Part shown: positions 1,461 through 43,546 of the stretch, in pieces | Numbering within the stretch: the first letter of the stretch is position 1 | Layout: the number at the start of each line of letters is the position of its first letter | Assembly: GCA_013002205.1 (NCBI GenBank) | Contig: JABDKN010000128.1 | Coordinates: forward strand, 2,824-66,823 | Direction of reading: 5' to 3' | From: Granulosicoccus sp. | GTDB lineage: Bacteria > Pseudomonadota > Gammaproteobacteria > Granulosicoccales > Granulosicoccaceae | Length of the DNA stretch: 64,000 nucleotides | Translations under genes and position numbers: made by a program | The notes under the pieces: generated by a model | What the model was told of the DNA's origin: nothing | The model's database searches: none | Seen by the model: only the letters and a program-made list of their open reading frames with translations

Positions 1461-1949
1461 TCAACGTTTCGACTGTCCGCGGGCATCTTGCGGACCGCAA
1501 GTACCTTGATCGTACCCGGGGGCATCGAAATCCCCCTCAGGTTCCCCTATCGGCCGTGGCTTTCCATGGCTGTCGATGGCTACGAACGTGAACAGTCCTT
1601 CGGTCACCTGTTCTTCAACCGCCAGCCGCCTGCGCCGGACCCAGGTCTCGACGTGCACGGTGACAGAGGTATTACCGATGACATGCGTGGCACAGTAACA
1701 ACTGACCTCGTCACCGACATTCACTGGCTTGTAGAATTTCATGCCGGTCACTGCAACGGTGGCTACCCTGCCCTGCGCCACATAGAAGGCATGCGTACCG
1801 CCGGCCAGATCCATTTGCGAGAGAATCCAGCCGCCAAATATGTCGCCGTTGGGGTTGGTGTCGGCCGGCATGGCAATCGTTCGCAGGGAAGCAGGCGTCT
1901 TATCCCGGTCGATATCCCTGGCGCGAGTACGCTGTTCACTATCGCTCAT
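1461..1949 (-). CDS. yciA: Acyl-CoA thioesterase, hot-dog fold (YciA family)
   Basis: AMPADTNPNGDIFGGWILSQMDLAGG motif. Confidence 0.9.
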   Translation of the reverse strand: MSDSEQRTRARDIDRDKTPASLRTIAMPADTNPNGDIFGGWILSQMDLAGGTHAFYVAQGRVATVAVTGMKFYKPVNVGDEVSCYCATHVIGNTSVTVHVETWVRRRRLAVEEQVTEGLFTFVAIDSHGKPRPIGEPEGDFDAPGYDQGTCGPQDARGQSKR

Positions 1950-40874: not shown

Positions 40875-42044
40875 ATGCCCCCAAGCTCTATCAACTGGCC
40901 GGATGGACTGGACGAGGCCGGATTCCTGGCTCGCTACTGGCAGAAGCAACCGTTGCTGATCCGGCAGGCCCTGCCGGATTTCCAGACACCTCTACCTGCC
41001 GAGGAACTGGCCGGATTGTCTGTCGAGCCCGATACGACGCCACGACTGATTACCCGGGACGAGGCGGGTGCCTATCACCTCGAACATGGCCCCTTCACGG
41101 AAGAGCGATTCGCAACACTGACCGGCAATGACTGGTCTCTACTGGTTACCGATGTGGAGAAGCACCTGCCGGAACTGGCAGCCTACCTGAGGCCATTTTC
41201 CTTTGTACCCACCTGGCGAATGGATGACCTGATGATCAGCTACGCGCCAGTGGGCGCATCGGTCGGCGCTCACGTCGATGAGTATGATGTGTTTCTGCTG
41301 CAGGCCAGTGGTTCGCGCCAATGGTCGATCAACAGCCGGGAAGCTGCCCACGATACATACATGACGAACTCCGAATTGAAGCTGTTGAGTTCATTTGAGG
41401 CAAAGGAGAGCTGGAACCTGCATCCCGGCGATCTGCTGTACCTGCCACCTGGAGTACCACATCACGGCGTGGCCAGTGCTGAACCATGCACTACCTGGTC
41501 CATCGGCTGCCGAGCACCGGCCCTGCCGGATTTCGTCATGCGCGTGGCGGAAATGATCTGTGAGCAACTTCCTCAGGCACGCTACACCGATGCAACGCTG
41601 AAGCCGGCAAGTCCGGGAGAGATCGATGCTGCCGCCCTGTCGCGGTTTGCGACCGTCTGGCGAAATGCGGTCAATCTGGACACCGATGAGCTGGCGACAC
41701 TGACGGGCCGATTCCTGACTGAGTCGTTTGCTACGGCAACCGGTGACCAAGACGCAGTCTCGGGCGTTGCACCCCGTGACAGCAAGCTCAGCTTCAGGGT
41801 GGCCCCATTCAGCCGGCTCGCCTGGTGTTCGCTTGCCAATGGTCAACCGGGCAATGAGCGGGTCCGCCTGTTTGTCGACGGACACACGCATGACTGCAGC
41901 CGTGCTCTGGCCATGCACTTGTGCAGTGTCGGTCAGCCTCTCGGTGATCTGGGAAAATTCGACTCGGCCGGAGATCGCAGCCTGGTGCAGACTCTACTCA
42001 GCGACGGCGCGCTCATCGTGGAGGACAGCGAGACGCCGGGTTAG
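40875..42044 (+). CDS. roxA: JmjC/cupin ribosomal oxygenase (RoxA/YcfD family)
   Basis: FLARYWQKQPLLIR, WRMDDLMIS, HVDEYDVFLLQ, PGDLLYLPPGVPHHG; follows purB. Confidence 0.88.
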   Translation: MPPSSINWPDGLDEAGFLARYWQKQPLLIRQALPDFQTPLPAEELAGLSVEPDTTPRLITRDEAGAYHLEHGPFTEERFATLTGNDWSLLVTDVEKHLPELAAYLRPFSFVPTWRMDDLMISYAPVGASVGAHVDEYDVFLLQASGSRQWSINSREAAHDTYMTNSELKLLSSFEAKESWNLHPGDLLYLPPGVPHHGVASAEPCTTWSIGCRAPALPDFVMRVAEMICEQLPQARYTDATLKPASPGEIDAAALSRFATVWRNAVNLDTDELATLTGRFLTESFATATGDQDAVSGVAPRDSKLSFRVAPFSRLAWCSLANGQPGNERVRLFVDGHTHDCSRALAMHLCSVGQPLGDLGKFDSAGDRSLVQTLLSDGALIVEDSETPG

Positions 42045-42054
42045 CCAGGTGCCC

Positions 42055-42393
42055 TCAGCCCTGCCCCTGCTCATTGCTCCGGCTTTTGCCTGTCTCCTTC
42101 ACCAGCCTGGCCAGCAAAACCGACACCTTATCGGAGGACAGCTTCAACATCGGCAGACACACGTCCAGGTCTTCCCGGAATATCTCATCGATCTGTGCAG
42201 TGACTGCCTCGCAGCCGTGAGTCGGTCTGCATGTCACTGCGCCAGAAGCATCTGCATTTGCAGGCCCATTCGCCTGCAGGATTTCGGTCAATCGCTGCAG
42301 GGACTCATGTACTTCGCGGTGCAGGCCGGCGTAGTTGACCACCGCAGCTCGAATATCGTGCAGCAGTATGGCGTCGTGATCATCAGGCATCAT
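42055..42393 (-). CDS. Small protein resembling a stand-alone HisKA/DHp domain
   Basis: LLHDIRAAVVNYAGLHREVHESL ... EDLDVCLPMLKLSSDKVSVLLARL; predicted helical hairpin; no HATPase motifs. Confidence 0.6.
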   Translation of the reverse strand: MMPDDHDAILLHDIRAAVVNYAGLHREVHESLQRLTEILQANGPANADASGAVTCRPTHGCEAVTAQIDEIFREDLDVCLPMLKLSSDKVSVLLARLVKETGKSRSNEQGQG

Positions 42394-42402
42394 TACTTCC
42401 CG

Positions 42403-42768
42403 TCAAGCGGCGAAACGGTCTAACAGATCGGACAGTTGAGCGGCCTGAAACGGTTTCTCCAGAAAGGCGCTCGATGCGTAGCTGCTCGCTTTCTGCTGCA
42501 GGGCGGGATCCTTGCTGGCAGTAGTGAAAATGATGGGCGTGGTGCAGAGCTGACTCGATGCCCGCAACCTGTCAGCAACGACGAAGCCACTTCCGCCCGG
42601 CAGATTGATATCCAGCAATATAACGGCCGGCTGGCAACGTACGGCTGCATTCATGGCATAGACGGCATCAGCGGCAGAGTCCACGTGATAACCCATTGAT
42701 TGCAGGCGCAGTGAAAGCGCCATTGAAATCTTCTTGTCGTCTTCCACGAGCAGGATGGTGTGCGTCAT
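42403..42768 (-). CDS. Single-domain response regulator (receiver)
   Basis: ILLVEDD, LLDINLPG (phosphoacceptor Asp), IIFTTA, FLEKPF. Confidence 0.93.
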   Translation of the reverse strand: MTHTILLVEDDKKISMALSLRLQSMGYHVDSAADAVYAMNAAVRCQPAVILLDINLPGGSGFVVADRLRASSQLCTTPIIFTTASKDPALQQKASSYASSAFLEKPFQAAQLSDLLDRFAA

Positions 42769-42934: not shown

Positions 42935-43546
42935 CTATCCGGCAGACATGCCACGCTTCATCTTCAGCCATTGCAGGGCGATGATGCTCAGGGCGTTTCT
43001 GATTTCCCGGGTATCGAGCATTGCAATGGCTTTCTCGGCCGGTACCACACACGCCAGAATATCCTCATCCTCTTCGCACAGTCCGTGTACACCACCGATG
43101 CACTCCAGGTTCGTTTCGGCATGGAACACGAAAACCTCCTCAGTACTGGAGCCCGGACTGGCCAGATAGTGTGAAATCAGCTCTACATGACTCAATTCCA
43201 CCCCCGCCTCTTCCCGTGCTTCGCGGATGGCCACGTCGGCCGGCGATTCATCGGTATCGATCATGCCTGCAATTATTTCAGTCATCCACGGGTCAGGTTT
43301 CTGGTACATCGCACCTATGCGGAACTGCTCCACCAGCACCACGGTATCGTTGACCGGATCGTAAGGGAGGACTCCGACGACATTGCCGCGGACGAACAAC
43401 TCCCGTTCAAGACTCAAGTTGCTTTCACCGTCATGTTGCGCATGGCTGAAACTGACCGAATCGATACGGTAGAAGCCGTCATGCAAGGTTGTGCGAGCCT
43501 CGAGCTGCCATTGTCGGTTCGCACCATGTTTCCGTTTGCGCATCAA
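42935..43546 (-). CDS. nudF: ADP-ribose pyrophosphatase (Nudix, NudF family)
   Basis: VLPYDP, LVEQFR, Nudix box GMIDTDESPADVAIREAREEAG. Confidence 0.9.
   Translation of the reverse strand: MMRKRKHGANRQWQLEARTTLHDGFYRIDSVSFSHAQHDGESNLSLERELFVRGNVVGVLPYDPVNDTVVLVEQFRIGAMYQKPDPWMTEIIAGMIDTDESPADVAIREAREEAGVELSHVELISHYLASPGSSTEEVFVFHAETNLECIGGVHGLCEEDEDILACVVPAEKAIAMLDTREIRNALSIIALQWLKMKRGMSAG

What the first reader, a model, noticed from the sequence alone, without database searches (positions are those of the whole stretch)
42055..42768. Candidate novel phosphorelay module: stand-alone HisKA(DHp)-like protein plus single-domain receiver
Seen: a two-gene unit with a 9-nt gap. The receiver has all catalytic residues (ED, D in LLDINLP, T, K in EKPF). 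The 112-aa partner reads LLHDIRAAVVNYAGLHREVHESL, then a linker of about 35 aa, then EDLDVCLPMLKLSSDKVSVLLARL; the His codon is at 42358-42360. Known: this matches the H-box pattern SHDLRxPLVNIxGFxxEL...EDIxExLxFIxxSxxKMxxLLxxL of a class of histidine-kinase DHp domains with a long inter-helix insert. There is no ATPase domain, sensor or TM, and the ORF ends cleanly. Stand-alone DHp-like phosphotransferases (Spo0B, ChpT) and DHp-mimic kinase inhibitors are known but rare. Inference: a His-phosphotransferase, phosphate sink or kinase decoy working with the receiver. It is the most system-like unexplained element in the window.
Basis: partly seen in the sequence, partly recalled or inferred. Interest (0 to 1): 0.7.

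Follow-up and report, generated by a model that had tools for sequence, protein, structure and literature searches.

The report
Stand-alone kinase phospho-acceptor hairpin with receiver
A 112-residue protein next to a single-domain receiver is the bare phospho-accepting helical hairpin (DHp) of a histidine kinase with nothing else attached, and it belongs to a small family seen only in the marine genus Granulosicoccus that probably passes phosphate between receiver proteins.

Summary
A 121-aa receiver (42403-42768, -) and a 112-aa ORF "X" (42055-42393, -) lie 9 nt apart, and the His codon is at 42358-42360.

X has no Pfam or NCBIfam hit. A profile of its relatives matches the DHp domains of full-length histidine kinases over both helices, His on His (E 2e-15; hhalign 98%). 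AlphaFold2 gives a two-helix hairpin. His12 is invariant in 22/22 close relatives and 34/35 wider ones.

All relatives are 84-133 aa, so X is not a recent truncation. The family appears only in Granulosicoccus (19 of 48 genomes). X nearly always follows a single-domain receiver. A REC-HisKA-HATPase kinase often precedes that receiver, and a second receiver sometimes follows X. Receiver and X diverge together (r 0.94). The kinase family is present in 19/19 X-positive genomes and 5/29 X-negative ones. X is under purifying selection (dN/dS about 0.2).

This genome's window copy has lost the second receiver and has no adjacent kinase. An orphan kinase of that family lies elsewhere in the genome.

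Best reading: a minimal Spo0B/ChpT-like His-phosphotransferase without the pseudo-ATPase domain. The domain identity is solid. The function is inferred and untested.

The parts
42403..42768 (-). RR1: single-domain response-regulator receiver, 121 aa. Acidic pocket E9/D10/D11, phospho-acceptor D53 (codon 42610-42612), T83, K105.
   Evidence: Pfam Response_reg 5.3e-20 over residues 5-115. AF2 gives a canonical (beta-alpha)5 fold in the fusion model. Orthologs at 77-79% identity sit next to X orthologs.
42394..42405 (-). RR1 stop codon TGA (42403-42405) plus the 9-nt spacer, which holds a GGGAAG ribosome-binding-like word. RR1 and X are in the same reading frame.
   Evidence: Sequence and junction translation. 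In other module types the two genes overlap by 1-16 nt, which is typical of translational coupling.
42055..42393 (-). X: stand-alone DHp (HisKA-derived) protein, 112 aa (111 if it starts at 42390), including the stop at 42055-42057.
   Evidence: No Pfam or NCBIfam hit. Family profile against kinase DHp domains. AF2 hairpin. dN/dS 0.15-0.30.
42268..42387 (-). Helix 1 (residues 3-42) carrying the H-box LLHDIRAAVVNYAGLHRE. H12 is at 42358-42360. D13, R15, N20, G23 and E27 are conserved.
   Evidence: AF2 secondary structure. Invariant and nearly invariant columns. hhalign places His on His against 38 DHp regions of this genome's own kinases: prob 93%, score 39.5, versus at most 13.4 in 21 reversed or shuffled controls.
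42220..42267 (-). Inter-helix loop (residues 43-58). It is low-confidence and carries an insertion of about 14 aa specific to the window-type subclade.
   Evidence: pLDDT 58-68. Alignment gaps. All four non-synonymous population variants fall in residues 45-64.
42067..42219 (-). Helix 2 (residues 59-109) with EDLDVCLPMLKLSSDKVSVLL. D75 is invariant; S86 and L90 are nearly invariant.
   Evidence: AF2. Alignments. It aligns with helix 2 of the G437 kinase DHp.
40875..42044 (+). Convergent JmjC-cupin gene whose stop lies 10 nt from X's stop. It marks the place where relatives carry a second receiver (RR2), which is absent here.
   Evidence: Pfam JmjC_2 5e-31. Synteny kdsB-RR1-X-RR2-JmjC in G031, G033, G016, G068 and G061. 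No RR2 ortholog anywhere in this genome. The junction is confirmed in independent contigs.

Best explanation
X is a minimal, stand-alone DHp domain: the dimerisation and histidine-phosphotransfer hairpin of a HisKA-type histidine kinase. It was cut loose from its ATPase and sensor domains early in the genus Granulosicoccus and has been kept since as the partner of a dedicated single-domain receiver, RR1.

Shown here:
- homology to kinase DHp domains over both helices
- a hairpin fold
- an invariant His with the catalytic neighbours D(+1) and R(+3)
- purifying selection
- obligate linkage and co-divergence with RR1
- phyletic dependence on one REC-HisKA-HATPase kinase family

Inferred:
- X forms a four-helix-bundle homodimer.
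- X works as a His-phosphotransferase, accepting phosphate on His12 from RR1~P and passing it to another receiver domain. That receiver would be RR2 where present, or the N-terminal REC of the REC-kinase, or another regulator. In this role X is a Spo0B/ChpT or Hpt analogue in a kinase -> RR1 -> X -> REC relay.
- In this genome the module is reduced to RR1-X. The likely phosphodonor is the orphan REC-kinase at G000:C301:27336-28562, and the final acceptor is unknown.
For: Homology to kinase DHp domains:
- The family profile hits DHp regions inside full-length kinases of other genera. The best are G437, a dCache-HAMP-HisKA-HATPase kinase of 697 aa (E 2.3e-15, profile positions 15-91), and G121, a PAS kinase (E 4.8e-10).
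- hhalign of A2 against the G437 DHp gives prob 98%, E 1.7e-13 over 77 columns, His on His.
- hhalign against 38 DHp regions of this genome gives prob 93%, with all 21 controls at or below 1.2%.
- A relative (L005) hits Pfam HisKA at E 0.003.

Fold and conservation:
- The AF2 hairpin has pLDDT 84.8 and pTM 0.68.
- H12, D13, N20, E27 and D75 are invariant in 22 sequences.
- dN/dS is 0.15-0.30.
- Population SNPs are synonymous in the helices and non-synonymous only in residues 45-64.

Genomic context:
- REC-kinase -> RR1 -> X in types b and c.
- RR1 -> X -> RR2 in type a.
- PAS-HK -> REC-HK -> RR1 -> X -> RR2 in G009.
- The genes overlap or abut.
- RR1 and X identity matrices correlate at r 0.94, Mantel 0/5000.
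- The REC-kinase family is present in 19/19 X-positive and 5/29 X-negative genomes, Fisher p 7e-9.
- All six type-a genomes have an orphan REC-kinase at least 70% identical to C301.

Against a phosphatase role (established knowledge, Willett and Kirby 2012, recalled rather than retrieved): HisKA phosphatase activity needs T or N at H+4. X has A, and its relatives have G or A, which argues against a DHp-type phosphatase.
Against: - There is no biochemical evidence that His12 is ever phosphorylated.
- This genome lacks RR2, and the window locus has no kinase, so source and sink here are guesses.
- Several relatives sit in kinase -> X loci with no separate RR1 (L005, L006, L025), so the relay order is not fixed.
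- The window-type subclade has lost the H+5 proline typical of HisKA (HDIRAA versus HDLRGP).
- One family member (L029, G010) has Arg in place of His.
- The AF2 model of the read-through RR1-X fusion folds both domains (pLDDT 91) but gives pTM of only 0.58, so docking is not confident.
- Foldseek against PDB gave nothing significant, as expected for a bare hairpin.
- The co-divergence and phyletic statistics are inflated by shared ancestry.
Confidence: 0.5

Rival explanations
1. X is a receiver-binding modulator rather than a relay step. As a DHp mimic it docks RR1 (or the REC of the REC-kinase). It then either drains RR1's phosphate (phosphate sink or phosphatase) or sequesters it from its kinase or target, tuning the output of a single-domain regulator.
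For: Linkage and co-divergence with RR1 fit binding as well as they fit transfer. This genome and all type-c loci have no RR2, so there is no obvious downstream acceptor. 'HisKA, no HATPase' proteins have been proposed to be phosphatases (PMC5847659).
Against: The H+4 position is G or A, not the T or N needed for HisKA phosphatase chemistry (sequence; established knowledge). A pure binder would not need an invariant His-Asp pair, yet H12 and D13 are invariant in 22/22.
Confidence: 0.22
2. X is a kinase subunit or decoy. It either heterodimerises with the DHp of the REC-kinase or of the CHASE-kinase found nearby, poisoning or re-targeting it, or it is phosphorylated in trans by that kinase's ATPase domain as a split kinase substrate.
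For: X depends on the REC-kinase family in its distribution (19/19 versus 5/29). Kinase -> X loci exist without RR1. A CHASE-HisKA-HATPase kinase whose H-box is of the same SHDLKTP type follows X in four loci.
Against: X is only distantly related to the DHp of the neighbouring REC-kinase (SHEVKTPLTAI type), so heterodimer packing is not expected. The window-type module has been kept for a long time far from any kinase. RR1, not the kinase, is the tightest-linked partner.
Confidence: 0.15
3. In this particular genome the RR1-X pair is a decaying leftover of the larger module. RR2 is deleted, the kinase is elsewhere, and the pair no longer signals.
For: RR2 is lost here but present in five of six type-a loci. 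Window X is only 39-47% identical to its orthologs, whereas RR1 is 77-79% identical.
Against: Both ORFs are intact with all catalytic residues. G061, which has kept RR2, is just as divergent in X (44-49%), so the divergence is the family's normal pace. Strain variants in independent metagenomes are synonymous in the helices and non-synonymous only in residues 45-64. The orphan REC-kinase is retained.
Confidence: 0.08

Closest known systems
Spo0B (Bacillus sporulation phosphorelay) and ChpT (Caulobacter CckA-ChpT-CtrA/CpdR relay); also PhyT of Sphingomonas
   Same: All are kinase-derived proteins that have lost kinase activity. They use the His of a DHp-type helical hairpin, in a dimeric four-helix bundle, to shuttle phosphate between receiver domains (PMC3433190, PMC5898713). 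X has the same hairpin and H-box, and sits between receivers in the operon.
   Different: Spo0B, ChpT and PhyT keep a C-terminal alpha/beta pseudo-ATPase domain and are about 190-250 aa. X is 112 aa and is hairpin only. X gives no Pfam SPOB_a or HPTransfase hit. X descends from a different HisKA subclass with a long inter-helix insert. Phosphotransfer by X is untested.
HisKA (PF00512) DHp domains of kinases of the SHDLRxPLVNIxGF type, e.g. the dCache-HAMP kinase in G437 and the PAS kinase in G121
   Same: Clear homology over both helices, with the same H-box and the same helix-2 motif (D/E-D-I/L ... S ... L).
   Different: Those are domains inside 400-700-aa kinases with sensor and HATPase_c domains. 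X is free-standing, has no ATPase partner domain, and (in the window type) has lost the H+5 proline.
'HisKA, no HATPase' proteins, listed as 'possible incomplete histidine kinases' in genome censuses (Galperin et al. 2018, PMC5847659; P2CS category)
   Same: They have a conserved phospho-acceptor His in a HisKA-like domain without an ATPase domain. Their function is uncharacterised, and phosphotransfer or phosphatase roles have been proposed.
   Different: The described ones are mostly archaeal and carry N-terminal sensor (PAS/GAF) or REC domains. X has no other domain, is invisible to Pfam, and forms a fixed operon with a single-domain receiver.
Hpt domains (PF01627; ArcB-Hpt, Ypd1, LuxU, ShpA)
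   Same: The proposed role is the same: a small His-carrying helical protein passing phosphate from one receiver to another.
   Different: Hpt is a monomeric four-helix bundle unrelated to DHp, with the His on an inner helix. X has no Hpt hit, is a two-helix hairpin, and is homologous to DHp.

Membership tests
HisKA / DHp domain (PF00512) | H-box with a phospho-acceptor His followed by an acidic residue and a basic residue at +3 | tested here: met
   H12-D13-I-R15. H and D are invariant in 22/22, R nearly so. His aligns on the kinase His.
HisKA / DHp domain (PF00512) | Antiparallel two-helix hairpin | tested here: met
   AF2 gives H3-42 and H59-109, pLDDT 84.8. The same hairpin appears in the fusion model.
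HisKA / DHp domain (PF00512) | Reaches Pfam's gathering score | tested here: not met
   No hit at E<=1 for the window protein. The relative L005 scores 18.0 bits against a cut-off of 26.9. The parent kinase subclass is itself sub-threshold (G437: 23.1 bits).
HisKA / DHp domain (PF00512) | Statistically supported homology to DHp domains of bona fide kinases | tested here: met
   Genome search E 2.3e-15 and 4.8e-10 inside full-length kinases. hhalign 98%, E 1.7e-13. Shuffled controls at or below 1.2%.
Histidine kinase (functional) | HATPase_c catalytic domain in the same protein | tested here: not met
   The protein is 112 aa. Its stop is 10 nt from the neighbouring gene. All relatives are 84-133 aa.
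Spo0B / ChpT-type His-phosphotransferases | DHp-like hairpin plus a C-terminal alpha/beta pseudo-ATPase domain | tested here: not met
   Only the hairpin is present. No SPOB_a or HPTransfase Pfam hit.
Spo0B / ChpT-type His-phosphotransferases | Reversible phosphotransfer between two receiver domains via the His | not testable with these tools
   Only context speaks for it: RR1-X-RR2 and kinase-RR1-X operons.
Spo0B / ChpT-type His-phosphotransferases | Homodimeric four-helix bundle | not testable with these tools
   No multimer prediction is available. The monomer model is a hairpin compatible with such a dimer.
Hpt domain (PF01627) | Pfam Hpt match; monomeric four-helix bundle with the HxxKG motif on an inner helix | tested here: not met
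   No Hpt hit at E<=1 or E<=10. The model has two helices, with His near the N-terminus.
Response regulator receiver (PF00072), for RR1 | Receiver fold with the acidic pocket, phospho-Asp, T/S and K | tested here: met
   Response_reg 5.3e-20. E9/D10/D11, D53, T83 and K105 are in the sequence. AF2 gives a (beta-alpha)5 fold.
'HisKA, no HATPase' / incomplete HK category (census class) | HisKA-like domain with a conserved His and no HATPase domain | tested here: met
   See the rows above. X differs from the described examples in having no sensor or REC domain.

The most novel reading that the evidence does not exclude
X defines a new class of phosphorelay component: a bare, roughly 100-residue DHp dimer that acts as a His-phosphotransferase without any pseudo-ATPase domain. 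It may close a loop from the kinase's product (RR1~P) back onto the kinase's own N-terminal receiver, or pass phosphate on to RR2. In the window-type subclade the conserved in-frame TGA between RR1 and X could additionally allow an occasional RR1-X fusion by read-through.
Probability: 0.4. Interest if true: 0.7.

Novelty: new variant of a known kind. Interest (0 to 1): 0.58.

Why it matters
Phosphorelays are thought to use two kinds of His carrier. One is the Hpt domain. The other is the rare kinase-derived Spo0B/ChpT/PhyT proteins, which keep a dead ATPase domain.

A free-standing DHp hairpin that works with a dedicated receiver would be the smallest such carrier known. It would show that the pseudo-ATPase domain is dispensable. 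It would also give a very simple natural system for studying DHp-receiver recognition and the insulation of paralogous modules, because three module types coexist in single genomes.

The case also exposes an annotation blind spot. Neither Pfam nor NCBIfam sees the family, and the parent kinase subclass falls below Pfam's HisKA threshold, so similar orphan DHp proteins may be hidden elsewhere.

The limits are that the family is confined to one genus of seaweed- and sediment-associated bacteria, and that its function is so far only inferred.

Tried and rejected
- **Single-sequence searches.** Pfam and NCBIfam gave no hit for X. PDB phmmer and the profile search returned only designed helical proteins and coiled coils at E of about 0.015 or worse, plus one sensor kinase at E 0.28. 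The word-indexed search found only X itself. The exhaustive representative search found only two true relatives, plus one spurious hit: P0002, an 1836-aa repeat protein that matches only the low-complexity loop and helix 2 of X (residues 49-97) and was rejected.
- **Foldseek of the AF2 hairpin against PDB.** No match at E<=0.001. A bare hairpin is not discriminating.
- **AF2 of the TGA-read-through RR1-X fusion as a stand-in for a complex.** Both domains fold, but pTM is 0.58, so nothing can be said about docking.
- **Hpt reading** (HxxKG-like 'HDIRAA...G'). Considered and rejected: there is no Hpt hit, the fold has two helices, and homology to DHp is strong.
- **Recent-truncation reading.** Rejected on the lengths and contexts of all relatives.
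- **L007 and L008 hits** (an MCP and others). Judged chance coiled-coil matches.
- **Promoter and terminator scan.** At chance level.
- **RNA evidence.** No usable RNA run was found.
- **Earlier findings of this scan.** None for this sequence.

Full report
**1. What is in the window**

Two ORFs lie on the minus strand, 9 nt apart and in the same frame.
- RR1 is at 42403-42768 (121 aa).
- X is at 42055-42393 (112 aa, or 111 from the second ATG, which has the better-placed GGGAAG).

RR1 is a plain receiver. It matches Pfam Response_reg at 5e-20 and has E9/D10/D11, D53, T83 and K105. X reads LLHDIRAAVVNYAGLHREVHESL, then a loop, then EDLDVCLPMLKLSSDKVSVLLARL, with His12 at 42358-42360, exactly as reported. 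X's stop lies 10 nt from the stop of a convergent JmjC-cupin gene, so no ATPase remnant can follow.

Contigs from beach-sand metagenomes of two studies cover JmjC-X-RR1 with a handful of SNPs.

**2. X is invisible to the standard libraries but has relatives**

- Pfam and NCBIfam gave nothing.
- PDB sequence searches gave nothing meaningful.
- The word-indexed protein search found only X itself.
- The exhaustive HMMER search of 1.84 billion representatives found two true relatives of 102-111 aa and one spurious repeat protein.
- Six-frame searches of related genomes found orthologs at 39-47% amino-acid identity in five other species. All are syntenic as kdsB - RR1 - X - RR2 - JmjC.
- More distant relatives of about 95-130 aa were also found.
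- Profile searches of 5.8 billion proteins added about 30 clusters, all 84-114 aa. The only organism names given were Granulosicoccus.

Within the genus, 19 of 48 species genomes have at least one copy. In 400 genomes sampled across the class, no stand-alone copy was found outside the genus.

**3. X is a DHp domain**

- In the class-wide search, every hit outside the genus lies inside a long ORF. The best hits, checked directly, are full-length histidine kinases, and the weaker matches fall on profile positions about 15-66, the H-box region.
- The best is a dCache-HAMP-HisKA-HATPase kinase (G437, E 2.3e-15, profile positions 15-91). Next is a PAS kinase (G121, E 4.8e-10).
- hhalign of the X family against the G437 DHp gives 98% probability and E 1.7e-13 over 77 columns covering both helices, His on His.
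- Against an alignment of 38 DHp regions from this genome's own kinases, the H-box helix aligns at 93% (score 39.5). One reversed and 20 column-shuffled controls score at most 13.4.
- One relative reaches E 0.003 on Pfam HisKA. The parent kinase subclass is itself below Pfam's threshold because of its long inter-helix insert, which explains the blind spot.
- AlphaFold2 predicts a hairpin with helices 3-42 and 59-109 and a floppy loop (pLDDT 84.8, pTM 0.68).
- Foldseek was uninformative.
- There is no Hpt, Spo0B or ChpT signal.

**4. It is a real, constrained gene with a conserved His**

- H12, D13, N20, E27 and D75 are invariant in 22 sequences. R15, G23, S86 and L90 are nearly so.
- Across 35 sequences including paralog types, the His is kept in 34. 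L029 has Arg.
- dN/dS for X is 0.15-0.30, against 0.015-0.03 for RR1. X is fast-evolving but under purifying selection.
- Strain variants in the metagenomes are synonymous in the helices (H25, V92). The non-synonymous ones fall only in residues 45-64, that is, the loop and the first turns of helix 2.

**5. Context: a module, of which the window holds a reduced form**

Three module types recur.
- Type b (H-box HDLRGP): REC-HisKA-HATPase kinase -> RR1 -> X. In some genomes RR2 follows, and in some a PAS kinase precedes or a CHASE kinase follows. In some loci the order is kinase -> X with no separate RR1.
- Type c (HDLTGP): REC-kinase -> RR1' -> X'. This genome has one at C9.
- Type a (HDIRAA, the window's type): RR1 -> X -> RR2 between kdsB and the JmjC gene, with no kinase nearby.

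Further points on the modules:
- RR1 and X overlap or abut in all types.
- RR1 and X pairwise identities correlate at r 0.94 (Mantel 0/5000), so the pairs duplicated and diverged as units. Shared ancestry contributes to this figure.
- The REC-kinase family is present in 19/19 X-positive genomes and in 5/29 X-negative ones (p 7e-9).
- All six type-a genomes carry, far from the module, an orphan REC-kinase at least 70% identical to G000:C301:27336-28562. These species are close relatives, so this is suggestive only.
- In this genome RR2 is missing from the locus and from the whole assembly, and a nudF gene sits between RR1 and kdsB.

**6. Mechanism**

Shown: X is a free DHp hairpin that keeps the catalytic H-box residues (His, Asp +1, Arg +3) and is tied genetically to a single-domain receiver and to one kinase family.

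Inferred:
- X dimerises into a four-helix bundle.
- X takes phosphate from RR1~P on His12 and hands it to another receiver: RR2 where present, possibly the kinase's own N-terminal REC, or an unlinked regulator.

Position H+4 is G or A rather than the T or N required for HisKA phosphatase activity. That requirement is established knowledge recalled from memory, not tested here. It disfavours a phosphatase role.

The read-through fusion model folds both domains but does not dock them confidently (pTM 0.58), so it neither supports nor refutes contact.

The rivals, with my odds, are a receiver-binding sink or sequestrator (0.22), a kinase subunit or decoy (0.15), and a decaying remnant in this genome (0.08).

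**7. Comparison and novelty**

- Spo0B, ChpT and PhyT are the known kinase-derived His-phosphotransferases. All keep a pseudo-ATPase domain.
- Genome censuses list 'HisKA, no HATPase' proteins as uncharacterised possible phosphoacceptors or phosphatases, but those carry sensor or REC domains.
- I found no paper describing bare DHp-only proteins of about 100 aa. The library is incomplete, so this is not proof of absence.

I rate X as a new variant of a known kind. The identity as a stand-alone DHp has a confidence of about 0.9. The phosphotransferase function has a confidence of about 0.5.

Noticed in passing
window 42403-42405; L002, L003, L004, L022, L024 RR1/X junctions: In all six type-a loci the RR1 stop codon is TGA and X is in the same frame, although the gap varies (0, 9 or 12 nt). 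In the other module types the frames differ and the genes overlap. With about three independent cases this could be chance (roughly 1 in 9), or it could allow an RR1-X read-through fusion.
   Followed up: partly
window 42045-42054 and 42935-43546: Compared with five related species, this genome has lost the second receiver (RR2) between X and the JmjC gene. It also carries an ADP-ribose pyrophosphatase (nudF-like, NCBIfam 2e-51) between RR1 and kdsB. No RR2 ortholog exists elsewhere in the assembly.
   Followed up: yes
G000:C65:1743-2129 (+), followed by C65:2129-2560 and C65:2673-5636: A third, more distant X-like small protein (128 aa, 'TYHDLHASLAIINGY'; E 4e-10 to profile A3) lies directly upstream of a 143-aa receiver and a CheA-like kinase with two Hpt-type P1 domains. 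Similar 127-163-aa proteins occur in G016, G031, G033 and G036 (L039-L042).
   Followed up: partly
L029 (G010:C88), 1468-1797 (-): One family member has Arg-Glu in place of the His-Asp of the H-box ('LLRELKAPLINARNF') and has no receiver or kinase within 1.5 kb. It may be a degenerate or repurposed copy. The genome is only 68% complete.
   Followed up: no
L010, L016, L026, L027: A CHASE-HisKA-HATPase sensor kinase (about 600 aa, H-box SHDLKTPIRGI) directly follows X in four species. The system may therefore take input from an extracytoplasmic CHASE sensor.
   Followed up: partly
G000:C301:27336-28562 (+): An orphan REC-HisKA-HATPase kinase sits between hemC and pntA. It belongs to the kinase family that neighbours X in other species, and it is the best candidate phosphodonor for the window's RR1-X pair.
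   Followed up: partly
window 42120-42134 (-) and 42379-42406 (-): One terminator-like hairpin lies inside X, and one promoter-like site straddles the RR1/X junction. Both are at the number expected by chance in shuffles.
   Followed up: yes
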